DNA from: an uncultured Chloroflexia bacterium
GTDB taxonomy: Bacteria; Chloroflexota; Chloroflexia; Thermomicrobiales; UBA6265
Reading direction: 5' to 3'
Length of the DNA: 64,000 nt
Assembly (NCBI GenBank): GCA_963737985.1
Contig: CAVTUU010000009.1
Span: 89,640-153,639 of the forward strand
The notes beneath the pieces were generated by a model. The model was not told the DNA's origin. It worked only from the letters and a program-made list of their open reading frames with translations, and ran no database searches. Numbering within the stretch: position 1 is the stretch's first letter; the number at the start of each line of letters is the position of its first letter. The position numbers and the translations under genes are program-made. This document shows positions 5,796 through 53,648 of this stretch, one piece after another.

Positions 5796-7316
5796 CTATC
5801 GCCGCCGTGCGTTATCAACGAATTTGACGACATCGGACTTGAGTTTGGTCAATGCTTTTGATTCGAGATAGACCATGTGACCAACCTCGTACTCTTCGAC
5901 CTGAATGTTCGCCCGTTGCGACGGATCGAGGTTCATGTGGCTCAGGGTGTACTCGGTCGCGAAGTACGGCGTCGCGAGATCGTAGTATCCAGATGCGACC
6001 AAAAGCTTGAGATATGGATTCTTGGCGAACGCGCTTCTCAGCGATTCGCTCGTATCGGGTTGCCCATCGCTGGCCTTGCCCCAATCCCATTCGATACCGC
6101 GAAGGATGTGGTACTCGGCGTCGTTTTCGTAGTTGAGCTCACGGCGGACGTAATCGTTGAACATCGCCGTAAACGGCGGTCGAATCGCGGCCATGCTCGG
6201 ATCGAAGTCGGGCGTTTCCGAGATATTCCGCTCGTCAATGCCTGTGTAGCGGCTATCTAAGCGGCCCACTGTTCGCCGTTCGGAGCGAAGCAGCTCCTTG
6301 CAGAAGCGGTGGATCTCCACGCGCAAATTGCTGTCTTCTATGTATTGTTCACTGAGACCGATATATCGCGACAATTTGGTGACTGATGCCGCCCGATCCT
6401 TATCGGTGAGCGTGTCGCCTTTCGCCAGCAACGCGTTGTACTCATTGATTGTCCAAGCTTCGACCTCATCCAGGAACTTGTTGAGATTCAGCTTCTGCAG
6501 TTCCTTGGGCAGCCGTTTGTGGTACCAGGCCGTGGCGGCATACGTGGGCGCATAGAGGAGATAGGGCAAATCATTGCCTGGACCAAAGCGCGCAGTCTGC
6601 AAATTGAGAATGCTTGAGACGAGCACAATGCCATTGAAGGCAATTCCGCGCTCGATGAGATGCCCGGAGAGCCCGGCCGCGCGGAATGTGCCGTAGCTCT
6701 CCCCAACCAAATACAGCGCCGAAGACCAGCGTTTGTAGCGAGTCAGATAGAGGCGGATGAACTCGCCGATCGACTCGATATCCTTCTGCACCTCCCGAAA
6801 TTTCTTCGCCAGGTCATCGGACTTCGCTCGGCTGTAGCCGGTGTCGACCGGGTCGATGAAGACGAGATCAGTGGCATCGAGCCACGTGTCATCGTTGTCG
6901 ACCAGCTCAAATGGTGGCGCCGGCATCCACCCTTCGGCCTCCATGACCACACGACGCGGACCCAGCGCTCCTAAATGAAGCCAAACCGACGACGAACCAG
7001 GACCGCCGTTGAACGAGAACATCAATGGCCGTTTCGGGTCACCTTCCGGCGAGTTCAACGTGTACGCCATGAAAAAGAGTTCCGCTTCTGTCTCGCCCTT
7101 TTCGTTCTTGATCGGCATCGTTCCTGTGGTGACGAAATACTTCAGTGTCTTTCCACGGACCTTGACTTCATGCTCGGTGACAACGGGCGGCTTCTCCGGT
7201 TCTTCCACTTTCTTTGGTTCTTCAGGGGTTGCATTGGATGCGGGAGTCGCAGTGGCCGTTGCGTCCGCCGCGAACTGCCGGCCGTCCAATGTCAAGAATC
7301 GATCAAATGCGGTCAT
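5796..7316 (-). CDS. Peptidase S10 (serine carboxypeptidase) family protein
   Basis: FNGGPGSSSVWLHLG and nucleophile motif GESYGTF. Start ATG 7316 is preferred (AAGGGTG upstream); the ORF is open to 7358. Confidence 0.85.
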   Translation of the reverse strand: MTAFDRFLTLDGRQFAADATATATPASNATPEEPKKVEEPEKPPVVTEHEVKVRGKTLKYFVTTGTMPIKNEKGETEAELFFMAYTLNSPEGDPKRPLMFSFNGGPGSSSVWLHLGALGPRRVVMEAEGWMPAPPFELVDNDDTWLDATDLVFIDPVDTGYSRAKSDDLAKKFREVQKDIESIGEFIRLYLTRYKRWSSALYLVGESYGTFRAAGLSGHLIERGIAFNGIVLVSSILNLQTARFGPGNDLPYLLYAPTYAATAWYHKRLPKELQKLNLNKFLDEVEAWTINEYNALLAKGDTLTDKDRAASVTKLSRYIGLSEQYIEDSNLRVEIHRFCKELLRSERRTVGRLDSRYTGIDERNISETPDFDPSMAAIRPPFTAMFNDYVRRELNYENDAEYHILRGIEWDWGKASDGQPDTSESLRSAFAKNPYLKLLVASGYYDLATPYFATEYTLSHMNLDPSQRANIQVEEYEVGHMVYLESKALTKLKSDVVKFVDNARRR

Positions 7317-13592: not shown

Positions 13593-14432
13593 CTAAATGG
13601 TGATCTCTCCAGCCTCACGCGCTGCCTGAATTGCGGCAAGCTCTCGTTTTCCTTGCTTTTCCAACGCCGCTAGCCAGCCTTTCTTATAGGGTTGCAGGAT
13701 CTTGACGAGATCGGCGGCGATGGCGAGATTGCGGAACCATTTCCGGTCGGCCGGGACAATGCGCCAAGGCGACTCCTTGGTATTGCATTTAGTCAAGGCA
13801 TCTTCGTACGCCTCCCAATATTCGTTCCAGGAACGGCGTTCGATCCAATCCTGCGCGGAGAGCTTCCACGCTTTTTCCACATCCCTCTCTCGTTCCAAAA
13901 GCCGTTCTTTTTGTTCATCTTCACTAATGTGAAGGTAGTACTTGGCCACAATCGTCTTGTTCTCGACCATGAGCTGCTCGAAGGCATTGATTTCCCCGTA
14001 ACGTTTTCGCCAAATTGATGGCGGTGCAAGTGCCTTCACTCGAACGACGAGGACATCTTCGTAATGGGATCGATTGAAAACGGTGAGCATGCCGCGCCCC
14101 GGCGTGTGCGGGTGGATTCGCCACAAGAAATCGTGTGCCAGTTCCTCCTCTGTCGGCGTTTTGAACGGCTGGACTCTGATCCCTGCCGGATTGACATCCT
14201 TGAAGACGTGCCGAATTGTGCCGTCTTTGCCGCTTGTATCGAGACCTTGGAGGATGACAAGTAAGGCGTGGGTTTTCGCGCCGAAAAGCAGTTCTTGCAG
14301 TTCCCCGAACTCAAGGGCGAGCGCCTCGAACTTGGCTGTCGCCGTCTCGCGATCGAGCCCGCCTGTCTCGTCACTTGCGATCTTGCTGAGCCTGACCGAT
14401 TTTCCCGGCGGCACTTGCACGACGTAGCTCAT
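13593..14432 (-). CDS. Polyphosphate kinase 2 (PPK2) family protein
   Basis: LLVILQGLDTSGKDGTIRHVF (Walker A-like) and FNRSHYEDVLVVRV motifs. Confidence 0.9.
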   Translation of the reverse strand: MSYVVQVPPGKSVRLSKIASDETGGLDRETATAKFEALALEFGELQELLFGAKTHALLVILQGLDTSGKDGTIRHVFKDVNPAGIRVQPFKTPTEEELAHDFLWRIHPHTPGRGMLTVFNRSHYEDVLVVRVKALAPPSIWRKRYGEINAFEQLMVENKTIVAKYYLHISEDEQKERLLERERDVEKAWKLSAQDWIERRSWNEYWEAYEDALTKCNTKESPWRIVPADRKWFRNLAIAADLVKILQPYKKGWLAALEKQGKRELAAIQAAREAGEITI

Positions 14433-14500: not shown

Positions 14501-15466
14501 TCATTGCGGAGTTTGCAATGACGGCTGTGGCTGCGGTTGAGGTTGCGGCGGCGCAGACGCGGGAGGTTGAACTGCCCGCGACCAGGAACGTCGGGCAAGG
14601 GCGACACCGAAGAGTACAAGCGCACCGCCAATTAGCTTGAGTGGTCCAAACGATTCATTGAATACCCAAACCGAGAAGATCCCCGCCAAAATCGGGATTA
14701 AATACATGTATGGCACTGTCCGCCCAACTCCGCGGCGCTCGATTGCCCATCCCCAAATTGTGTACGCGACCAGCATCGACATGATTGAGGAGTAAAAGAG
14801 CGACGCCCACCCCGACGCATTGACCGCGCCCCAGTCTTGATTGAGGACGGCTGGCAGCGTGAGTGGTAGCGAGCAGACCAAGCCGATCAGCGCCGACCAG
14901 GCGGTTACAACCGGAGAGCCATAGTGCCGGACAAGCGGTTGCGTGGCAAGGCTATAGGCAGAAAAACAAATCGCGCCGGCCAAGCTCAACAAGTCGCCGT
15001 ACACTGGCTTCCCATCGGCCAATTTCTCGCCGACGAACACCGCGACGCCGATCGTTGAACAAGCCACGCCGACCCATTGCATCGTTCCAATTCGCTCAAA
15101 ACCAAGAAACCCGGCGAAGAGCATGGTGATAACCGGACCGAGTGAGACGAGGATCGAAGTCGAAAAAGCAGTCGTGTGATCGAGGGCAATGGTGAATAGG
15201 AGGTTATAGGCGGCGTAGCCCGTTACGCCGGTGAAGAGGAAGAGTAAGTAGTCTTCGCGCCGAATCGTCAGGGGGATATGACGGTAAATCAACCACGCAA
15301 AAATCGGCGCCACCACGATGGCGAACCGACCGAAGACGTATGCCTTTGGATCAATCTGGTCGAGTGCCCGTTTGACGATGATGTTGTTCGCTGCCCAAAC
15401 CACGACCGTGAAGAGCATCGCCCCATCGGCGATGTCAAACCGTTTCGGATCGTGTTCCCGCCCCAT
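14501..15466 (-). CDS. EamA/DMT family transporter
   Basis: About 10 predicted hydrophobic helices arranged as two EamA-like halves. Pro/Gln-rich C-terminal tail. Confidence 0.8.
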   Translation of the reverse strand: MGREHDPKRFDIADGAMLFTVVVWAANNIIVKRALDQIDPKAYVFGRFAIVVAPIFAWLIYRHIPLTIRREDYLLFLFTGVTGYAAYNLLFTIALDHTTAFSTSILVSLGPVITMLFAGFLGFERIGTMQWVGVACSTIGVAVFVGEKLADGKPVYGDLLSLAGAICFSAYSLATQPLVRHYGSPVVTAWSALIGLVCSLPLTLPAVLNQDWGAVNASGWASLFYSSIMSMLVAYTIWGWAIERRGVGRTVPYMYLIPILAGIFSVWVFNESFGPLKLIGGALVLFGVALARRSWSRAVQPPASAPPQPQPQPQPSLQTPQ

Positions 15467-15631
15467 TGAACGTCCAATCCCCTGGCCAAATAGACCAAGA
15501 AGGATAAATGGGATAGCGGAAACCTGCCGTAGTGGTCTGCTAACTCGGCGTATCCAGGAATGGATTAGTCAATCATTAAGGAATCATGGTGCACAGAGAT
15601 GTGCTGAGCAATTTGGGGATTTTTTTCGATC

Positions 15632-16489
15632 TTAGAAGAGTGAGGCGCCTTCTAACTTGAGGAGTTGCTGTTTCACCTCTGGTCCGCCTGCGTATCCACC
15701 TAACGTCGCGTCAGAGCGAACGATACGGTGGCAAGGGACGACCAAAGGAACTGGATTTCGGTGAAGCGCGTTGCCGACAGCGCGTGTTGCGCCCGGATTT
15801 CCGACGGTACGGGCAATGTCCTGATAGGAGCGTACTTGCCCGAAGGGGACATCGGCGGTCGCGATCAGAACGGACTTAGTAAAAAGAGGAAGGCCCGAAA
15901 GATCGATCGGCAGATCGAAATGGTGGCGCTTGCCAGAGAAATACTCCTTGAGTTGGTGGGTTACGATCGACGGCGCTTTCAGATCCGCGACGGCACGAAA
16001 CCCGCGGTGTTCAAGTCCGGCGCGAAACTCGGCCTCCGACCACCGCTTGCCAAAGCCAATCTCGACGAGTCCTTTCTCCGAGACCGCAATATACAACGGC
16101 CCGATTGGACTCTCTATCTTGGCATAGGCAGCATGTAGTTTATGCAGTTTTGGCGGTAACGGCGGCATGGGTGAAATTGTTGCTTCGCCAAGACGTTCGA
16201 GGAGATCGTCAACGCGCTCAAACGTGGTAAGTTCGCCGCGGCAATATGAGCACGTTCCGGTGTGGGTGAGTAGCCAGGATTGGTCAGGGGAAGTCAAATC
16301 GCCGATGACATAGCCGGGCATATTTTCTTCGCAAAGATCGCACGCGTCGACGCCCGGCTGATTTGCGGTGACCGCGAGCGCGGGGCCAGGATCAGTCACT
16401 TCAAGACCCTTCGGCGCGCTCACACGGCGACGAATTGACTTGGTTCGTTGGGTCATTCTTGGATTCGTTGTTGTCATAGCTGCGTCCAT
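15632..16489 (-). CDS. Fusion protein: zinc-binding anti-sigma (ZAS, zf-HC2) N-terminal domain + methylated-DNA-protein-cysteine methyltransferase (MGMT/Ogt) C-terminal domain
   Basis: CDLCEENMPGYVIGDL...LLTHTGTCSYCRGEL contains the H-x3-C-x2-C ZAS signature. The C-terminus has TRAVGNALHRNPVPLVVPCHRIV (PCHR active site). No TM segment. Located downstream of the ECF sigma gene. Confidence 0.85.
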   Translation of the reverse strand: MDAAMTTTNPRMTQRTKSIRRRVSAPKGLEVTDPGPALAVTANQPGVDACDLCEENMPGYVIGDLTSPDQSWLLTHTGTCSYCRGELTTFERVDDLLERLGEATISPMPPLPPKLHKLHAAYAKIESPIGPLYIAVSEKGLVEIGFGKRWSEAEFRAGLEHRGFRAVADLKAPSIVTHQLKEYFSGKRHHFDLPIDLSGLPLFTKSVLIATADVPFGQVRSYQDIARTVGNPGATRAVGNALHRNPVPLVVPCHRIVRSDATLGGYAGGPEVKQQLLKLEGASLF

Positions 16490-16555
16490 TCAGCATTCCC
16501 ATCATACGGCGGGTCGAATAGGCCGCCGGGCGGCCGAAGCTTCGGCCGCCCGGGT

Positions 16556-17179
16556 CTACAAGCGGTCGCCGAAGCAATCCCGCAGTTTTCGGAGCGCCTC
16601 GTGCACATTGGCACGGGCAGCGGCCTCAGTTGAATTGAGATTCGCGGCAATCTCGTCGTATCCCAACTCATGATACTTCCGCAAAACCAAAGCAATGCGT
16701 TGCTTTGGTGGGAGGTTCAGTACGTAGGATTCAACTTCTGCAAGCAAATCCCGGGCGTCGAGCTGGCTAACGGAATCGACCGTCGCGGCAGGAAGAAACT
16801 CTTCCGCCCCGTCCATCAACGGATCCTCTCGGCTCCGTTTCCGGCGGTCCGACAAAAAGGTATTGGTCGCGATCTTATACAACCAGGCCCGGTAGTTCGC
16901 CGTGCAATCAAGCCGTCCGAAGGCACGGTAGGCCTTCATGAGCGTTTCCTGGTAAAGATCGTCGGCATCGGCACGGTTTCGCGTAAGCTGCGTCACAAAT
17001 CGATAAATCTCTGACTGGTGCCTCGTCAGCAGATCCTCGAATGTCACGGGTTGCGTGCCAGGCATGCCTGAGAGTGGCGCTTCGTCAAGCGCCCCAACTC
17101 GTGCGGTTGCCAATGCTTGCATCATCGAGTTCCGTCGCTCCGTCCGACCCGCCCTAACGGCGGCGATGGCCCCGTGCAT
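16556..17179 (-). CDS. ECF-type RNA polymerase sigma-70 factor
   Basis: Region 2 (DADDLYQETLMKAYRAF...YRAWLYKIATNTFLSDRRKR) and region 4 (LPPKQRIALVLRKYHELGYDEIAANLNSTEAAARANVHEALRKLR). The start may be the internal ATG at 17125. Confidence 0.9.
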   Translation of the reverse strand: MHGAIAAVRAGRTERRNSMMQALATARVGALDEAPLSGMPGTQPVTFEDLLTRHQSEIYRFVTQLTRNRADADDLYQETLMKAYRAFGRLDCTANYRAWLYKIATNTFLSDRRKRSREDPLMDGAEEFLPAATVDSVSQLDARDLLAEVESYVLNLPPKQRIALVLRKYHELGYDEIAANLNSTEAAARANVHEALRKLRDCFGDRL

Positions 17180-17514
17180 TTCCGGTTACCGTTCCCCCGT
17201 GAAATCCGACGCGCCCCAACCGCGTCGATCTCCTTCCACAACTGTACAACGCGCGGTCGTGCGTTATGTGAGATGACATTGATAAATCCATAGATTGCCC
17301 GCACCAACTACTGTACGTACACCTGATTTTGCGTTAGGATGTCGCTATCGCGACCGCGAAAATCGGCGATCCGAACCGAACTGTTCACGCATTGAACCGT
17401 CGCGGCCCCGCCTTGGCTTCCGCAGCCAAAAACAGCGCGTTTGATCGAGACGAATCAACCTCAGGCGACGCCGGAGGGTCGCCGAGTGTGCGGGACAAGG
17501 AGGGATGTGCGGCC

Positions 17515-19482
17515 ATGGTGATCGGTATCACTCGACCAAGAGACTCGCGGTCGGTCTATTCCGTCGAATCTATCCACCGGACTGCGTTTGCCGAGGATTG
17601 GCAATCCAGTCGCGGCGAAATCAGATACGAAGTCTCCTGCGACTTGTTCGGAGGTTTCCCTGGATTCGCTCAGCGTGGAGGCATGTACATTGGGGCGCAA
17701 CTCCGGATCACCGACCGCTTCATCCTCATCGACGAGGGTAAGGCAGGAGGATTCGGACTTCCGATTTCCTGGCTTGAAGGAGCAGTCGTTATCCCATTCC
17801 AGCAGCGAGACGAACCAGGATTGCGCGTTTTCTACAAAGATGGCGCGTGCCCGCGACTATTCACGGTTCGGTTTCGTGGCGGTCGACTCTCGATGCGCGC
17901 GCACCGGCGAGCCGAGCATTCGCTCAATCTCCTGACGACTCTTGGCATGAACGAGCGGTTTAGCATTGAGGCTCCGATTGAGCCGAACTTCCGCTTTCCC
18001 TGGGACCAGACCCGCCAATTCGAACTCGAAAATGTGGTTTGGACGGGATCCACCACTGCTCCATTCCAAGTCGGTCTCGATTCGTCTCCCGCGGATGTAT
18101 GGCTTACAACGAAGTCACTGATTTGGGGGAGCCCGGGCGGTGACGGCATCAATCGTGTTCCTTTGCAGCTGCTGCAGGATGTCATCACCGCGCAAGTGAG
18201 CGATCGCCAAAGAACGCCTGCGGTCTACGTTTCCTTTGGGGACGAAACGACCGGCCGCTTCGATCTCGCTTTCCTGTTCGACCGCTATGACCCCGAACGA
18301 AATGTGCGTGAGCGGGGCGCTTTTCTGGTCGGACTCCGCTCTCGTGGCATTCCCTTGGGCGCGCCAATGCCACTCTACCAACCGTGGCGGATTACAAATC
18401 ACCCCGTTGTTTCACAACCAACGCTCCCCCAAGACACTGAGGAAATGCCGACGATGGAGCGCCCATTGCGTAGGCGGCGCCGCACGTCGATTTCGCAAAT
18501 GGTGTCTCGTCATATGGTCGACGCCGAGGAACCAACCTGGGCGGATTCATTTGCCCAAGAAGAAGAGGATGGAGATCTCGAGCTCTTCGATGTCTCAGAC
18601 GCGGTATGGCCCGAAACCTATTCGCCAGCTCCGTACTTACGAGTTGTCGACGAAACTTATGATGAGCCAGTTTCAATCTCACAGGCCCCAGCGTGGGAGC
18701 CGGAGCCAGCTGTTGACGATTGCTGGGAGCGCGAACTCGAAGAGCCAGTTGACGCCGGCGCAGACGTATTCTCGACCGTTGAAGAGACACCTGAACTCGT
18801 CACGGATTCTCCAATGGTCCTGACCGACTCCTCTGACGTGAATGAGGAACCGATTCATGTTGGACCAGTGGCAAAGCCCGGGTCGGAAACCGAAGAATCT
18901 GCCGACGTGGTTCTTGCTGAGCTTGCTGGAGCCGATGAATCAGAAGCAGTGGCTGGAGGAACAGTGGCGCTCGGTGATTATGAATTGGCAACAGATTGGT
19001 CAATCACCAACGCGCAGACCGAACCGCTGTCATCGTCGTTACCTCCCGCGACCGCATCACTCGCCGTCCTGCAACAGGAACTCGACGAAGCAACAATGAA
19101 GGCAGCGAGTCAATCGTCTAAGGCGTCGTTGACTATTCAAGAATATGAAGCAAGTTGCCTCGCGGTGCTGAGCGAGGTGCTGCGAGCGATCAATGATCGC
19201 GTCGCTTGCCGGCCGGCGAAAGCAATCACTGAACCACTTCCGTCTCCGTCTCTCCAATCGAGTGCGCTCGGAGCGCTCATCGAACTCACCGCCAATGGTG
19301 ATTTGACCATGGACGAGGCCCGCAAGCGCAAAGCCCGGCTTGTCGCGTTGGGCGAATCCGGCGTGCGCCTGCGCGCGCTGATGGAACTGCGCGATTTCGG
19401 TCACATCACAACTCAGGATCTCGATCTCAAGAAGGAGCAGATCACCGCCCATCTCGCGACGTTCGTGCGCCCAACCGCGTGA
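17515..19482 (+). CDS. Hypothetical 655-aa protein: two PH/GRAM-like N-terminal modules, long acidic disordered linker, two SHOCT-like C-terminal helices
   Basis: ATG 17515 is about 10 nt after AAGGAGGG. No catalytic motif recognised. The C-terminus LIELTANGDLTMDEARKRKARL and LMELRDFGHITTQDLDLKKEQI resembles SHOCT. Confidence 0.7.
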   Translation: MVIGITRPRDSRSVYSVESIHRTAFAEDWQSSRGEIRYEVSCDLFGGFPGFAQRGGMYIGAQLRITDRFILIDEGKAGGFGLPISWLEGAVVIPFQQRDEPGLRVFYKDGACPRLFTVRFRGGRLSMRAHRRAEHSLNLLTTLGMNERFSIEAPIEPNFRFPWDQTRQFELENVVWTGSTTAPFQVGLDSSPADVWLTTKSLIWGSPGGDGINRVPLQLLQDVITAQVSDRQRTPAVYVSFGDETTGRFDLAFLFDRYDPERNVRERGAFLVGLRSRGIPLGAPMPLYQPWRITNHPVVSQPTLPQDTEEMPTMERPLRRRRRTSISQMVSRHMVDAEEPTWADSFAQEEEDGDLELFDVSDAVWPETYSPAPYLRVVDETYDEPVSISQAPAWEPEPAVDDCWERELEEPVDAGADVFSTVEETPELVTDSPMVLTDSSDVNEEPIHVGPVAKPGSETEESADVVLAELAGADESEAVAGGTVALGDYELATDWSITNAQTEPLSSSLPPATASLAVLQQELDEATMKAASQSSKASLTIQEYEASCLAVLSEVLRAINDRVACRPAKAITEPLPSPSLQSSALGALIELTANGDLTMDEARKRKARLVALGESGVRLRALMELRDFGHITTQDLDLKKEQITAHLATFVRPTA

Positions 19483-19672: not shown

Positions 19673-22118
19673 ATGAGCCAAGGAAGAATCGCGCGCGCCA
19701 ATCGTCGAACTCCCGCCGCCCGCCGGCGCATGGCGCGCTACGGGCGGACAGTAGGAGCGCGGCGCGGATACGTTATGCCGCCGCACTTGCTGCCGGGCGT
19801 GACTGGACGTAAGAAGAAGAGCTCAAACAAGCGCAATGGGATTCTCGTCAGCGTTGTTGTCGTCTTTCTAGGCTTTATCGTCCTCTTTACCGCCGGGATG
19901 ATTATCAGCACGGCTGCCGCGGTCGCAGGCACTGTCCACGCCTATCGCGAAGTCAATAAAGATTTGCCTAACGCCGCAGTCGTCGCTGGCGATACCTTTG
20001 AGAACAGCATCATCTACGACCGCAACGGCGGAGTCCTCCAGGAAATTGCGAATCCAAACAACGGATGGCGCACATTTGTGCCACTCGATCAAATATCGCC
20101 TGATCTCATCAACGCCACCGTTGCGGCTGAGGACTCTACCTTCTGGAGTCACTACGGCGTTGAGCCGGGCGCGATCGTCCGCGGCGCGTTGATCAATTAC
20201 GGCGGCGAAGGTTCCTCGGGTGGCTCAACCATCACCCAACAGCTTGCCCGCGGTTTGTATCCTGATCAAATTGGGTTTGACATCTCCTACACCCGCAAGA
20301 TCAAAGAGGCGCTGGCCTCGGTCTACCTCGACAACAAATTTTCAAAGCAGGACATCTTAACGATGTACCTGAACCAGATCTTTTACGGGCAAAACTCCTA
20401 CGGCATCGAAGCCGCCTCAGAAACGTACTTTCAGAAACACGCGAACGAGCTAACCCTTGGCGAGGCGTCGTTGCTCGCCGGCCTGCCGCAGGCGCCGTCG
20501 AACTACGACCCGACTGCCTTCCCCGACAAAGCCAAAGCCCGGCAGAAGTACGTGCTCAAACAAATGGTCCGCTATCACTACATCACCCAAGATCAAGCGG
20601 ACGCGGCCTATGCGGACACTCCCGCCGCCCATAAACGTAACGCGGAAATCAAGGATGCGCCGCATTTCACGAACTACGCGAAGGACTGGGTAGTCCAGCA
20701 CTACGGCGAAGACGCGCTGAACGAAGGCGGACTTCGCATCTACACGACGCTCGATCCAACGCTGCAACATCGCGCCGAAGAAATCGTCCGCGGTCAGCTG
20801 CCAGATCTGGCCCAGTGGAATCGCAACAACGCGGCGATGGTCGCGATGGTGCCTTGGAGTGGCGAAATCCTTGTCATGGTCGGCTCGGCGGATTTCAACG
20901 ATCCAACGATTGGCGGCCAGGTGAATTACGCCGTCGCGCCCATTCAACCCGGTTCATCAATCAAGCCCATAGTCTATGCTGCCGCCTTCGAAGACGGCTG
21001 GAATCCGGGCACGGTCGTTATCGACTCGTCCTTCAAAGAACCGACTCCAAACTCTCCTGAGCCATACTACGAACCGCAAAACTACACCGGAAACTATTAT
21101 GGCGCGGTGAGCGTGCGAACCGCCTTGAGCAACTCGCTGAATATCCCGGCAGTTCGAGCAATCAAATACACCGGCGTTCAACATGTCATGGACCTGGCGC
21201 AGGGCCATGGGATACAAGCAAAGCTTGACGGATTCCGCGGCGAATTACGGTTTGTCGTTTGCGCTCGGTTCTCCCGAAGTGCAACTCGTCGAACACACCA
21301 ATATGTATGCGAGCTTTGCCAACGAAGGCAAATATGTCGCCGCCAATCCCATCCTGAAAATAACCGACTCGCAAGGCAACGTACTCTATGAGCGAAACCC
21401 GGCGAAGGAATGGCAAAATACGCCGCAAGTGCTCAAGGCGGCATACGCGTACCAGATCACCTCGATTCTCACCGACAACAAATCCCGCTCAATGGTCTTC
21501 GGAGCAAACAACCTCTTCGGGCAGACACAAGACGAACTTGGACGACCAACGGCCGCGAAGTCCGGAACAACCGATAACTGGAAAGACATCTGGACCATGG
21601 GTTACACCACCGATCTTGCAATCGGTGTCTGGGTCGGGCATACCACTGGCGACGGTTCGACCGTGGGAGATCTTCCAGAACTCGATGGTATTCAAGGTGC
21701 GGGGCCAATCTGGTCAAAAATGATGCTGGAGATCCATCAAAATCCGCAGTGGTCGCAATACCTTCTCGGTCCAGACGGCAATCCAATGCCGAAGGAATTC
21801 CCCCGTCCGGCCGATATCTATGAAGGTGATGTTTGCGTCGCCACCGGTGGTAAGGCTGCCAGTGGATTCGAATCGCACGAGGATCTTTTAGTTCGCAACG
21901 AGGGGCCCGCGCTCGATTGCGATCAGATCAACGCCTATCAGGCCAAGGTCCTGCAAGATGCGCTCGCCGACCTCAAAGTGCATGGCGACAAATATGTACG
22001 AGGCGCTGCGGACAGTATCCGCCGATACGCTGAAGCCGTCGGCTACAGCTCGAGCGGCTTTGGTCGTGGCCAATTCCGAGGTGACTCCCCACAGATTCAA
22101 CCCCGCAACGGGCCATAG
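19673..22118 (+). CDS. Class A penicillin-binding protein (PBP1A-type glycosyltransferase/transpeptidase), apparent +1 frameshift at a G-run near 21201-21203
   Basis: GT51 motifs EDSTFWSHYGV and GGSTITQQLAR. TP domain SSIKP...; frame 1 degenerates after ...HVMDLAQ while ORF 21183-22118 continues AMGYKQSL...FALGSPEVQLVEHTNMYASFANEGK...KSGTTDN. Confidence 0.9.
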
Positions 22119-52498: not shown

Positions 52499-53551
52499 CT
52501 AATCGTCGAACTTCCTCGACAAACCAAAGAGTCCGAACAGATCTGGGTTTGTGAACCGCGTGAGCGATGCGATTGCACCATGTTCGATGGCAATGACGAG
52601 TACCGCGTGAGCCACGAATGCCCCGACGTCATCTTCCCGGGAATAGACGGCGAACGCCGGCTGCCGGTTCGCTCGTATCGGCACAAGCCGGAACCGGTCT
52701 AGGCGGCCACCTCCCGGTACGGTGGCAAGGAACTCCCCAATCTCGTCTCGCCCAACATAGCGCGCGGGCAGCGGCGGCATAGTGAAGACAGCATCCTCCG
52801 TCAATATGCCTACAATCGATGGGATATCCGCTGTATGCCAGGCATCAACTAGCCGTCGCACGAGAGCTTGTTCGGTGGCGCTGCTGGCGCCTGAGTGAAT
52901 GCGCGCAACGCGCGCGGCGATTCGCTCCTGTTCAAGCGTGGCTCGGGCTCTCTGAAGCGTGCTGTTGATGCCGGCGACACTTGTCGCCAGCATCGTCGCT
53001 ACCTCCGCCGCCGAATAGCCAATGACATCGCGAAGTAGGAGTGTGGCGCGCTGACGAGGAGGGAGCAGCTGGACCGCTGCGACGAAGGCGAGTTCAACGC
53101 TTTCCGCTTGTTCAATCGTTTCTTCGGGACCCGACTGGCTTGAATTCAATTCATCGAGGAGAAAGTCGGGATACGGGTCAAGATTCACCTGCTCACCTTG
53201 GGACCGCCCATCCTTCGCTCGATCATTGAGAGAAACAGCGATGACCTCTCTTCGTCGAGTTCGCCGGGTCAATACGGTCAGGCAGACATTGGTGGCGATC
53301 CGGTAGACCCAGGCGCGAAACGGAGCGCGCGGCTCGAAGCGATCGATCTGGCGCCAGGCCCGCATCAGTGTCTCTTGGAGGGCGTCATCCGCATCGTCGA
53401 TGGTTCCGAGCATCCGGTAGCAGTGGACGTGGACCTCGCGTTGGAGAGGTCGCGTCAACTCTTCGAATGCATGCTTATCTCCCGCGGCCGCCGCGGCGAG
53501 ACGTTCCATCTCAAGCTCTCTGCCAACGTCGACGATCTTCTCTATCCTCAA
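52499..53551 (-). CDS. ECF-type sigma-70 factor with C-terminal SnoaL/NTF2-like extension
   Basis: Region 2 DDADDALQETLMRAWRQIDRFE...FRAWVYRIATNVCL, region 4 LPPRQRATLLLRDVIGYSAAEVATMLATSVAGINSTLQRAR, followed by a ~130-aa extension. The start may be 53509. Confidence 0.9.
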   Translation of the reverse strand: MRIEKIVDVGRELEMERLAAAAAGDKHAFEELTRPLQREVHVHCYRMLGTIDDADDALQETLMRAWRQIDRFEPRAPFRAWVYRIATNVCLTVLTRRTRRREVIAVSLNDRAKDGRSQGEQVNLDPYPDFLLDELNSSQSGPEETIEQAESVELAFVAAVQLLPPRQRATLLLRDVIGYSAAEVATMLATSVAGINSTLQRARATLEQERIAARVARIHSGASSATEQALVRRLVDAWHTADIPSIVGILTEDAVFTMPPLPARYVGRDEIGEFLATVPGGGRLDRFRLVPIRANRQPAFAVYSREDDVGAFVAHAVLVIAIEHGAIASLTRFTNPDLFGLFGLSRKFDD

Positions 53552-53648
53552 GGTTTTTCATATTCGGCCGCAGGAGGAGGCGTTCGCTTGGGGTGCATGC
53601 CTCCTCCTGCTCAAGGATTACTCTTTGCCGAGGTCTCTCGAATACGAG

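What the first reader, a model, noticed from the sequence alone, without database searches (positions are those of the whole stretch)
15632..17179. ECF sigma factor paired with a cytoplasmic zinc-anti-sigma domain fused to an O6-alkylguanine-DNA methyltransferase
The gene after the ECF sigma factor encodes one 285-aa polypeptide.
- Its N-terminus matches the ZAS/zf-HC2 anti-sigma signature: CDLC...x22...H-TGT-C-SY-C, i.e. H-x3-C-x2-C, at about 16241-16342.
- Its C-terminal ~165 aa is a complete MGMT/Ogt domain with active site PCHRIV (Cys codon at 15731-15733).
- It has no transmembrane segment.

Established knowledge: ZAS domains hold ECF sigma factors inactive until a Cys-based signal releases them. 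MGMT is a suicide enzyme whose active-site Cys is irreversibly alkylated. In Ada, Cys methylation is the transcriptional switch for the adaptive response.

Inference: alkyl transfer onto the fused MGMT domain could release the sigma factor. That would be an Ada-like alkylation sensor built on the ECF/anti-sigma chassis. I do not know this as a characterised mechanism.
Basis: partly seen in the sequence, partly recalled or inferred. Interest (0 to 1): 0.65.

Follow-up and report, generated by a model that had tools for sequence, protein, structure and literature searches.

The report
Anti-sigma factor fused to DNA-alkylation repair enzyme
A bacterial stress sigma factor sits next to a partner protein in which a zinc-finger anti-sigma domain is fused to a complete suicide DNA-repair enzyme (O6-alkylguanine methyltransferase).

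Summary
On the minus strand an ECF sigma gene (16556-17125, 189 aa from the conserved start) is followed by a 285-aa ORF (15632-16489). That ORF has a disordered N-terminus, a three-helix zinc anti-sigma domain with invariant C50/H76/C80/C83, a Pro-rich linker, and a full MGMT with every catalytic and DNA-binding residue.

It is not an assembly artefact. All 61 complete ORFs of this kind in independent metagenome and genome contigs are fused the same way. All 64 loci with room upstream carry the sigma gene.

A conserved ECF-type promoter, TCTCACA-N15-CGTT, precedes the sigma gene and occurs nowhere else in the window.

The wider picture is new to the finding:
- 53 of the 80 MGMT loci most similar to this one, from Actinomycetota, Chloroflexota, Gemmatimonadota and Methylomirabilota, have an ECF sigma directly upstream.
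- Most of these MGMTs carry a short Cys-free N-terminal helix instead of the zinc domain.
- 30 of 50 share the promoter motif.

The association is catalogued as group ECF122, mechanism unknown. The best reading is that MGMT acts as the anti-sigma sensor: alkyl transfer destabilises it and frees the sigma factor. That step is inferred, not shown.

The parts
17248..17273 (-). ECF-type promoter TCTCACA-N15-CGTT (-35 at 17267-17273, -10 CGTT at 17248-17251), upstream of the sigma gene. Candidate autoregulatory promoter.
   Evidence: It is the only match in the 64-kb window, even with 1 mismatch or a relaxed pattern. An exact match lies upstream of sigma in 35 of 48 related loci with enough upstream DNA, and 47 of 48 match within 2 mismatches or with a 16-nt spacer. 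All 38 exact occurrences in 382 kb lie upstream of sigma.
16556..17125 (-). ECF (group 4) sigma factor, 189 aa from the conserved start M19. The mechanical ORF extends to 17179.
   Evidence: Sigma70_r2 E=3.4e-16 and Sigma70_r4_2 E=2.2e-11. TIGR02937 sigma70-ECF scores 88.5 bits against a cutoff of 42.9. The closest solved structures are M. tuberculosis SigE and SigH and S. coelicolor SigR. The database gene call for this exact protein is 189 aa (P0121).
16526..16553 (-). GC-rich 12-bp hairpin directly after the sigma stop codon, with no U tract.
   Evidence: RNA fold. It is conserved with compensatory changes in the closest relatives (L081, L086-L088) but not across the whole family. Its function is unknown.
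15632..16489 (-). Anti-sigma/MGMT fusion gene, 285 aa. The start could be M1, M5 or M12.
   Evidence: AlphaFold2 mean pLDDT is 85.4 and residues 1-26 are disordered.
16181..16384 (-). Zinc anti-sigma domain (residues 36-103). Helices at 37-42, 49-61, 67-79 and 81-103. Ligand codons: C50 16340-16342, H76 16262-16264, C80 16250-16252, C83 16241-16243.
   Evidence: The ligands are invariant. Profile hits go to RsiW, DdvA and RslA. Foldseek hits go to RslA (probability 0.96-1.0), ChrR (rmsd 1.0 A over 46 columns), RskA and RsiW.
16139..16180 (-). Pro-rich interdomain linker (residues 104-117).
   Evidence: pLDDT falls to 64-73 there and no secondary structure is predicted.
15635..16138 (-). Complete O6-alkylguanine-DNA alkyltransferase (residues 118-285). 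Active-site Cys253 codon at 15731-15733.
   Evidence: Pfam and NCBIfam hits. Foldseek TM 0.85 and 37% identity to M. tuberculosis OGT 4wxd. Y222, R236, N245, C253, H254, R255, Y266 and E280 are invariant.
14501..15466 (-). EamA-family transporter, conserved immediately downstream. Possible operon member.
   Evidence: Pfam EamA E=9e-42. Of the loci listed, most of them with at least 1.2 kb downstream, about three quarters carry EamA and/or PPK2 on the same strand after the fusion. No second ECF promoter lies in front of it, and no terminator-like site was found in the 15467-15631 gap.
13593..14432 (-). PPK2 (polyphosphate kinase 2 family), conserved downstream. Possible operon member.
   Evidence: Pfam PPK2 E=5e-67. 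Synteny.

Best explanation
This is a two-gene, self-regulating ECF sigma / anti-sigma module in a Thermomicrobiales-like Chloroflexota genome. The anti-sigma factor is a soluble protein with two domains.

**Shown by sequence, structure prediction and comparison.**
- The N-terminal zinc anti-sigma domain is of the type that holds an ECF sigma factor inactive.
- The C-terminal domain is a fully competent suicide O6-alkylguanine-DNA alkyltransferase.
- The pair sits behind a conserved ECF-type promoter, so the sigma factor probably drives its own operon and hence the MGMT, possibly with EamA and PPK2.

**Inferred.**
1. When the MGMT domain repairs an O6-alkylguanine, Cys253 is irreversibly alkylated.
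2. Alkylated alkyltransferases are known to be destabilised at the interface between their N- and C-domains and to be degraded.
3. This unfolds or exposes the attached anti-sigma domain and frees the sigma factor.
4. The freed sigma transcribes more sigma and more MGMT/anti-sigma.
5. Fresh anti-sigma re-captures sigma once the damage is gone.

The circuit would measure consumption of the repair enzyme and replace it in proportion. The same logic would apply to the much larger set of sigma-coupled MGMTs that carry only a short N-terminal helix.
For: **Anti-sigma identity of the N-domain.**

**Obligate linkage.**
- All 61 complete zinc-domain ORFs are fused to an MGMT with PCHR.
- All 64 loci with room upstream have the ECF sigma directly upstream. 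The other 7 are cut off by the contig end.

**Autoregulatory promoter.** It is unique to the position upstream of sigma.

**MGMT, not the zinc site, is the constant partner.**
- 53 of the 80 MGMT loci most similar to the query have an ECF sigma directly upstream.
- In 35 of 50 of these the MGMT start overlaps the sigma stop by 4 nt.
- Every coupled MGMT has an N-extension of 21-87 aa. For 22 of 32 uncoupled MGMTs the maximum possible extension is 15 aa or less.
- Most extensions lack Cys and His.
- 30 of 50 non-zinc loci share YCTCAC[AG]-N15/16-CGT[TC], against a background of 0.0065 per 900 nt.

**Catalytic integrity.** All 53 coupled MGMTs keep Y, the R-finger, N, PCHR, Y and E. They cluster apart from uncoupled MGMTs.

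**Division of labour.** Mycobacterium operons read promoter, plain ogt, sigma, extended MGMT. This suggests one enzyme copy and one regulator copy.

**Alkylation context.** A full Ada gene is inserted in the cluster in L084, L131 and L139.

**Established knowledge.** Alkylated AGTs are unstable and degraded because the N-domain/C-domain connection is perturbed (PMC4605297). Alkylated human AGT changes partners and modulates transcription (PMC10779285).
Against: - There is no experimental or co-folding evidence that the N-domain binds this sigma.
- The predicted domain has three main helices. It lacks an obvious fourth, sigma2-binding helix of classic class I anti-sigma domains.
- The invariant Zn(Cys3His) site could itself be the sensor.
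- Co-transcription of a repair gene with its regulator is also what a plain output gene would look like.
- Nothing shows that alkylation of a bacterial MGMT triggers proteolysis in these organisms.
- The window's own zf-HC2 score is below Pfam's threshold.
Confidence: 0.5

Rival explanations
1. The zinc-thiolate site of the anti-sigma domain is the sensor, as in RsrA/RshA. Oxidants or thiol-reactive electrophiles, including SN2 methylating agents that attack Zn-bound Cys as in Ada's N-domain, eject zinc and release sigma. The fused MGMT is the effector, made in fixed 1:1 ratio with the regulator.
For: - C50, H76, C80 and C83 are invariant in 93 sequences.
- The sigma factor is closest to SigH, SigE and SigR, which use soluble zinc anti-sigma factors.
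- In C. glutamicum the zinc-anti-sigma-controlled SigH regulon includes a putative MGMT, and its model includes thiol depletion by alkylation (PMC3489674).
Against: - About 50 sigma-coupled MGMTs share the promoter motif and the MGMT subfamily but have Cys/His-free extensions. The partnership therefore does not depend on a zinc sensor.
- In many anti-sigma factors of this type the zinc is only structural (general knowledge).
- This reading does not explain why the MGMT must be physically fused in 61 of 61 cases.
Confidence: 0.25
2. The MGMT is only cargo. An ordinary anti-sigma gene fused with the downstream regulon gene, and sigma release depends on an unrelated, unknown signal or on plain transcriptional control. 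Alkylation of Cys253 has no regulatory consequence.
For: - Adjacent genes in an operon do fuse.
- pTM is 0.59 with a flexible Pro-rich linker, which suggests two independent domains.
- The published catalogue lists the MGMT only as a conserved neighbour (PMC8999054).
Against: - No locus has a separate anti-sigma gene between sigma and MGMT. The MGMT start overlaps the sigma stop in most non-zinc loci.
- N-extensions are specific to sigma-coupled MGMTs.
- The coupled MGMTs form their own subfamily with a signature Arg five residues after the Cys.
- The Mycobacterium operons carry an additional plain ogt.
Confidence: 0.15
3. The fusion is an assembly or sequencing artefact that joins two ORFs.
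For: None found.
Against: The frame is continuous. There are 120 database homologues of 260-300 aa and 61 complete fused ORFs on independent contigs.
Confidence: 0.01

Closest known systems
ECF122 group of the ECF sigma classification (Casas-Pastor et al. 2021, as summarised in PMC8999054)
   Same: An ECF sigma factor with a conserved 6-O-methylguanine DNA methyltransferase gene in its neighbourhood. No recognised anti-sigma factor. Mechanism listed as unknown. The example is actinobacterial (Cellulomonas).
   Different: The published note treats the MGMT as a neighbour, not as an anti-sigma factor. It does not mention a zinc anti-sigma domain fused to it. Formal membership of this sigma factor in ECF122 could not be tested because the group's models were not available. 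What links them here is the shared promoter motif and gene order.
ChrR-SigE of Rhodobacter sphaeroides
   Same: A soluble two-domain anti-sigma factor. The N-terminal zinc anti-sigma domain holds the ECF sigma, and the C-terminal globular domain receives the signal. The ChrR N-domain superposes on the model at rmsd 1.0 A over 46 columns.
   Different: The C-terminal domain is a cupin that responds to singlet oxygen. It is not a DNA-repair enzyme, and no covalent self-modification is involved.
RsrA-SigR / RshA-SigH (zinc anti-sigma, ECF12 type)
   Same: A small cytoplasmic H-x3-C-x2-C anti-sigma factor encoded next to an autoregulated ECF sigma. The sigma factor here is closest to SigE, SigH and SigR among solved structures.
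   Different: Those proteins consist of the anti-sigma domain only, and the zinc/thiol site is the sensor. The promoter consensus differs (GGAAT-N18-GTT type, from memory, against TCTCACA-N15-CGTT here).
Ada of E. coli (adaptive response)
   Same: An MGMT domain fused to a zinc-binding regulatory domain. Irreversible Cys alkylation acts as the signal. It autoregulates to replenish a suicide enzyme.
   Different: Ada is an AraC-type DNA-binding activator. It is switched by methylation of N-terminal Cys38 from methylphosphotriesters (PMC10779285). The protein here has no Ada_Zn_binding or AraC domain and would act by sequestering a sigma factor. Genuine Ada genes coexist in the same cluster in L084, L131 and L139.
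M. tuberculosis OGT and other stand-alone alkyltransferases
   Same: The fold (TM 0.85, 37% identity) and all catalytic residues.
   Different: Stand-alone enzymes start at the 'Y-x-T-x-D-S-P-x-G' strand and have no N-terminal extension.

Membership tests
Zinc anti-sigma domain (ZAS, zf-HC2, class I anti-sigma domain) | H-x3-C-x2-C motif plus an upstream Cys/His ligand about 25 residues before it | tested here: met
   C50-x25-H76-x3-C80-x2-C83. Invariant in 93 homologues and present in 113 of 120.
Zinc anti-sigma domain (ZAS, zf-HC2, class I anti-sigma domain) | Pfam PF13490 match above the gathering score | tested here: inconclusive
   The window protein scores 13.6 bits, or 17.3 for the domain alone, against a cutoff of 22.2. 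28 of 32 family members match, best E=2e-7.
Zinc anti-sigma domain (ZAS, zf-HC2, class I anti-sigma domain) | Helical anti-sigma fold resembling solved sigma/anti-sigma complexes | tested here: met
   The AlphaFold2 N-domain has pLDDT 90.6. The best PDB matches are RslA, ChrR, RskA, RsiW and MucA. The profile's top PDB sequence hits are RsiW, DdvA and RslA.
Zinc anti-sigma domain (ZAS, zf-HC2, class I anti-sigma domain) | Fourth helix that contacts sigma region 2 | tested here: not met
   The model shows helices 49-61, 67-79 and 81-103 plus a short helix at 37-42. A Pro-rich linker follows and then the MGMT, with no separate fourth helix.
Zinc anti-sigma domain (ZAS, zf-HC2, class I anti-sigma domain) | Encoded directly downstream of, and co-oriented with, an ECF sigma gene | tested here: met
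   True in the window and in all 64 loci with room upstream; the other 7 of 71 are cut off by the contig end.
Zinc anti-sigma domain (ZAS, zf-HC2, class I anti-sigma domain) | Physical binding and inhibition of the sigma factor; zinc occupancy | not testable with these tools
This needs multimer prediction or biochemistry.
O6-alkylguanine-DNA alkyltransferase (MGMT/Ogt) | Both Pfam domains above threshold and the two-domain fold | tested here: met
   PF01035 scores 105.9 bits and PF02870 scores 50.7 bits. TM 0.85 to M. tuberculosis OGT.
O6-alkylguanine-DNA alkyltransferase (MGMT/Ogt) | PCHR active site plus Tyr, Arg finger, Asn hinge, Tyr and Glu (human Y114, R128, N137, C145, H146, Y158, E172) | tested here: met
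   Y222, R236, N245, C253, H254, Y266 and E280 are invariant in the family and in all 53 sigma-coupled MGMTs.
O6-alkylguanine-DNA alkyltransferase (MGMT/Ogt) | Alkyl-transfer activity | not testable with these tools
   Needs an enzyme assay.
ECF (group 4) sigma factor | Regions 2 and 4 only, about 190 aa | tested here: met
   Sigma70_r2 and Sigma70_r4_2, with no region 3 or 1.1. TIGR02937 is above its cutoff.
ECF (group 4) sigma factor | Conserved bipartite promoter with a CGT-containing -10 upstream of its own gene | tested here: met
   TCTCACA-N15-CGTT at 17248-17273. Conserved in 47 of 48 loci (within 2 mismatches or with a 16-nt spacer) and specific to that position.
ECF122 (ECF Hub group) | Sequence match to the group's model | not tested
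   The group models and the reference protein WP_057211282.1 were not available.
ECF122 (ECF Hub group) | MGMT gene conserved next to the sigma gene | tested here: met
.
Ada | N-terminal Ada_Zn_binding (Cys4) domain and AraC-type helix-turn-helix | tested here: not met
   No PF02805 or HTH_AraC hit in the window protein. Real Ada genes nearby in L084 do show these domains.

The most novel reading that the evidence does not exclude
Sigma-coupled MGMTs are a widespread, Ada-independent adaptive response to DNA alkylation in Actinomycetota, Chloroflexota and neighbouring phyla. The suicide repair enzyme is itself the anti-sigma factor. Each repair event consumes one inhibitor molecule and releases one ECF sigma factor, so transcription of the repair operon tracks enzyme consumption. 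The zinc anti-sigma fusion in this window is the most elaborate form. The short-helix form in Actinomycetota would be a previously unrecognised minimal anti-sigma module.
Probability: 0.4. Interest if true: 0.82.

Novelty: new variant of a known kind. Interest (0 to 1): 0.68.

Why it matters
**A different route to the adaptive response.** The classical adaptive response to alkylation (Ada) is a textbook case of a repair protein turned into a regulator by its own chemistry. It is absent or different in many bacteria. A second, structurally unrelated solution would show how large parts of Actinomycetota and Chloroflexota regulate alkylation repair. Here that solution would be a suicide enzyme that titrates a sigma factor.

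**An open question in the ECF field.** It would explain an ECF group currently listed as having an unknown mechanism and no anti-sigma factor.

**A new kind of input.** It would add irreversible enzyme consumption to the known inputs of anti-sigma factors.

**Practical uses.**
- The module is small: a promoter and two genes.
- It appears self-contained.
- It could be triggered specifically with O6-benzylguanine-type pseudo-substrates. That makes it directly testable and potentially useful as an orthogonal switch.

Tried and rejected
1. **Co-folding sigma with the fusion.** No interface prediction was possible.

2. **Literature.** Five full-text searches plus a search for 'ECF122' found only the ECF122 note. 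None found an experimental study. The Casas-Pastor paper's main text and preprint do not mention the MGMT link, and no supplements are held. A 2023 review of alkyltransferase fusions lists EndoV, histone-like and Ada fusions but nothing on sigma factors.

3. **Genome scan.** The genome-contig scan used MGMT-core patterns, so it returned mostly generic MGMTs. This turned out to be useful, because it revealed the non-zinc sigma-coupled forms.

4. **Regulon members in the window.** A search for further members using the promoter motif found none.

5. **Terminator and sigma-70 promoter scans.** These gave nothing above the shuffled expectation.

6. **N-domain against 1.84 billion cluster representatives.** Only 41 hits, 17 of them at E<=1e-10. 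This zinc-domain subtype is therefore a narrow family, and the search added little on function.

7. **Ada membership.** Considered and rejected.
Full report
**1. The observation**

On the minus strand there are two consecutive ORFs: 16556..17179 (207 aa) and 15632..16489 (285 aa).

The first is an ECF sigma factor:
- Sigma70_r2 E=3.4e-16, Sigma70_r4_2 E=2.2e-11, and TIGR02937 at 88.5 bits against a cutoff of 42.9.
- The database gene call for this exact protein is 189 aa (P0121, on a 1.38-Mb contig).
- The ATG at 17179 is not conserved in the closest relative. The gene most likely starts at 17125.

The second ORF has both MGMT domains far above threshold: PF01035 at 105.9 bits and PF02870 at 50.7 bits. 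It also has a sub-threshold but full-length zf-HC2 match at residues 50-84 (13.6 bits against 22.2).

There is no hydrophobic segment; the maximum Kyte-Doolittle 19-residue mean is 1.2.

**2. Is the N-terminal region really an anti-sigma domain?**

The weak Pfam score is rescued by comparison.
- A search of 5.8 billion protein clusters gave 2826 hits. The top 120 are nearly all 260-300 aa and come from Thermomicrobiales-type metagenomes.
- 113 of the 120 carry C-x25(28)-H-x3-C-x2-C. The other seven are N-terminally short. All 120 have PCHR.
- In a 93-sequence alignment C50, P58, H76, C80 and C83 are invariant.
- 28 of 32 N-domains hit zf-HC2, best E=2e-7.
- A profile of the domain finds the zinc anti-sigma factors RsiW, DdvA and RslA as its top three PDB sequences (E=0.003-0.013).

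AlphaFold2 on the full protein gives mean pLDDT 85.4:
- Residues 1-26 are disordered.
- Helices lie at 37-42, 49-61, 67-79 and 81-103, all with pLDDT above 90.
- A Pro-rich linker spans 104-117.
- A canonical MGMT follows.

Foldseek on the full model first lists MGMTs; M. tuberculosis OGT has TM 0.85 at 37% identity. The first non-MGMT hits are RslA chains in complex with SigL.

The N-domain modelled alone (pLDDT 90.6) has these best PDB matches:
- RslA, probability 0.96-1.0.
- ChrR, rmsd 1.0 A over 46 columns.
- RskA, RsiW and MucA.

All of these are anti-sigma factors solved with their ECF sigma. One difference from the classic class I domain: no separate fourth helix is predicted.

**3. Is the MGMT intact?**

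The equivalents of human Y114, R128 (Arg finger), N137, C145, H146, Y158 and E172 are Y222, R236, N245, C253, H254, Y266 and E280. All are invariant. By sequence this is a working, DNA-directed suicide alkyltransferase.

**4. Is the fusion real and linked to the sigma factor?**

A metagenome scan with an N-domain-specific pattern returned 68 further loci. Combined with the window and six genome or contig loci:
- All 61 complete ORFs with the zinc domain continue into an MGMT with PCHR.
- All 64 loci with room upstream have the ECF sigma directly upstream on the same strand. The seven without it are cut off within 300 nt of the zinc domain.

An artefact is excluded.

Gene order is conserved down to 47% identity:
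- A divergent unknown gene of about 650 aa and a PBP1A gene lie on one side.
- The other side reads sigma, fusion, EamA transporter and/or PPK2.
- In three loci a complete Ada gene (Ada_Zn_binding + AraC + MGMT) sits between EamA and PPK2.

**5. A conserved promoter**

Upstream of the sigma gene all relatives share TCTCACA-N15-CGTT. This is an ECF-type bipartite motif with the usual CGT-containing -10.
- In the window it lies at 17248-17273(-). It is the only match in 64 kb, even with one mismatch or a relaxed pattern.
- 35 of 48 loci with at least 160 nt upstream have it exactly. 47 of 48 have it within two mismatches or with a 16-nt spacer.
- All 38 exact occurrences in 382 kb are upstream of sigma.

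This fits autoregulation. As far as the sampled DNA shows, the local regulon is the operon itself.

**6. The wider family**

This was not part of the original finding.

The genome scan used MGMT-core patterns and returned the 80 MGMT loci most similar to the query. 53 of them have an ECF sigma gene immediately upstream. They come from:
- Actinomycetota: Mycobacterium, Amycolatopsis, Solirubrobacterales, Gaiellales, Acidimicrobiia, Thermoleophilaceae.
- Chloroflexota: Limnocylindria, Anaerolineae, Dehalococcoidia.
- Gemmatimonadota and Methylomirabilota.

Only the Thermomicrobiales and Sphaerobacteraceae loci and one Dehalococcoidia locus have the zinc motif next to a sigma gene. One Vicinamibacterales locus has a zinc domain-MGMT fusion with no adjacent sigma. 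The rest carry a shorter, Cys/His-free N-extension, typically one helix of the form L-x-R-L-h-x-R-L-x(3)-A...LLDVAY.

Features of the sigma-coupled MGMTs:
- **Extension length:** 21-87 aa in every case. For 22 of 32 uncoupled MGMTs the maximum possible extension is 15 aa or less.
- **Translational coupling:** in 35 of 50 cases the start codon overlaps the sigma stop by 4 nt.
- **Catalytic residues:** all 53 keep every one. They carry a signature Arg five residues after the Cys, where uncoupled enzymes have Gly.
- **Phylogeny:** they cluster apart from uncoupled MGMTs in a neighbour-joining tree.
- **Promoter:** 30 of 50 non-zinc loci have YCTCAC[AG]-N15/16-CGT[TC] upstream, against a background of 0.0065 per 900 nt. 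These sigma factors therefore appear to share one promoter specificity with the window's.

In several Mycobacterium loci the motif precedes a plain ogt with no extension. The sigma gene follows, and then the extended MGMT. An operon with two MGMT paralogues, with only the one in the anti-sigma position carrying the extension, is what a split into enzyme and regulator would look like.

**7. What is known**

A 2022 review lists ECF122 among ECF groups with no cognate anti-sigma factor and unknown mechanism. It names 6-O-methylguanine DNA methyltransferases as the conserved neighbour (PMC8999054). No paper in the searchable library reports experiments or mentions a zinc anti-sigma-MGMT fusion. 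A 2023 review of alkyltransferase fusions does not mention sigma factors.

Two relevant points are established:
- Alkylated alkyltransferases from human, archaeal and bacterial sources are destabilised through the connection between their two domains, and are degraded in vivo (PMC4605297).
- Alkylated human AGT acquires new partners and alters transcription (PMC10779285).

**8. Mechanism**

*Shown:* a soluble anti-sigma-type domain is fused to an intact MGMT. It is obligately paired with an ECF sigma factor behind a conserved ECF-type promoter.

*Inferred:* the fusion protein sequesters the sigma factor. Alkyl transfer to Cys253 during repair destabilises the MGMT, exposes the anti-sigma domain to unfolding or proteolysis, and frees sigma. 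The operon is then transcribed until new, unmodified fusion protein re-captures sigma.

I put this at about 0.5. The main rivals:
- **The zinc-thiolate site is the sensor and MGMT is the fused effector (0.25).** This is weakened by the many Cys-free relatives.
- **The MGMT is mere cargo (0.15).** Three observations weaken this: no separate anti-sigma gene exists anywhere, the extensions are specific to sigma-coupled MGMTs, and the Mycobacterium operons carry two MGMT paralogues.

O6-benzylguanine, which alkylates only the MGMT Cys, would separate these models cleanly when combined with a C253S mutant.

**9. Verdict**

The neighbourhood is already catalogued as ECF122. The following appear to be undescribed in the literature I could search:
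- the recognition that the MGMT carries the anti-sigma module, either a full zinc domain or a minimal helix;
- the shared promoter;
- the consumption-sensing logic.

It is a new variant of a known kind: an anti-sigma factor with a novel sensor domain. Interest is 0.68.

Noticed in passing
window 17312-17321: Perfect palindrome TGTACGTACA, unique in the 64-kb window (0 of 100 shuffles reach one match). It is conserved as GTGTACGTACA in 9 related loci, at a variable 28-109 nt upstream of the ECF -35 where measured. It lies between the sigma promoter and the divergent unknown gene. It is a candidate operator for a second regulator or for the divergent gene.
   Followed up: partly
window 16526-16553 (-): A 12-bp GC-rich hairpin immediately after the sigma stop codon, with no U tract. 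It is kept with compensatory changes in the closest relatives (L081, L086-L088) but not family-wide. It might set the sigma:anti-sigma ratio.
   Followed up: partly
window 19673-22118 (+): The class A penicillin-binding protein (Transgly + Transpeptidase) is split into two overlapping ORFs, 19673..21391 and 21183..22118. Relatives have one gene of 784-819 aa. This is a frameshift, either a pseudogene or a sequencing error.
   Followed up: no
window 17392-19482 (+): A 696-aa protein with no Pfam match, divergently transcribed from the sigma operon. It is conserved in that position in several relatives, e.g. L081, L082, L084, L123 and L139.
   Followed up: no
L020, L023, L024, L028, L035 (Mycobacterium spp.); L051 (Propionibacteriaceae): The Mycobacterium operons read ECF promoter, plain ogt (no extension), sigma, MGMT with an N-terminal helix. 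That is two MGMT paralogues flanking the sigma gene. In L035 the first copy reads ACHR instead of PCHR. L051 has the same gene order, but no promoter motif was found there.
   Followed up: partly
L084 9934-11028; L131 2654-3766; L139 6830-7942: A full-length Ada gene (Ada_Zn_binding + AraC + MGMT in L084; the other two were identified by a second MGMT hit in the same position) is inserted between EamA and PPK2 in the sigma/anti-sigma-MGMT cluster. Both alkylation systems can therefore coexist side by side.
   Followed up: partly
L007 5944-6705 (Vicinamibacterales chromosome): A zinc anti-sigma domain-MGMT fusion (HVGECPRC, PCHR) with no ECF sigma next to it; murJ lies upstream on the other strand. 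This is an orphan or trans-acting version in Acidobacteriota.
   Followed up: partly
L050 (Gemmatimonadota), about 5941-6693: A sigma-coupled MGMT whose N-extension looks like a degenerate anti-sigma domain that has lost the zinc ligands (…LTEDLAACPDLRERA…). It appears intermediate between the zinc form and the short-helix form.
   Followed up: no
proteins P0241, P0253, P0255, P0256, P0258, P0262 (not in the window): Giant proteins of 2500-4500 aa contain 4-13 repeats that match residues 23-59 of the queried N-domain fragment, which is roughly residues 53-89 of the full protein. Their nature is unknown.
   Followed up: no
window 52502-53557 (-): A second sigma-70-family ORF of about 350 aa, phmmer E=9e-15 to the ECF sigma. 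It was not examined.
   Followed up: no
window 15718-15720 (codon of R258) and loci L003-L080: Sigma-coupled MGMTs read PCHR-v-v-R-s-d-G, while uncoupled ones read PCHR-v-i-G-a-d-G. This is a subfamily signature five residues after the active-site Cys.
   Followed up: partly
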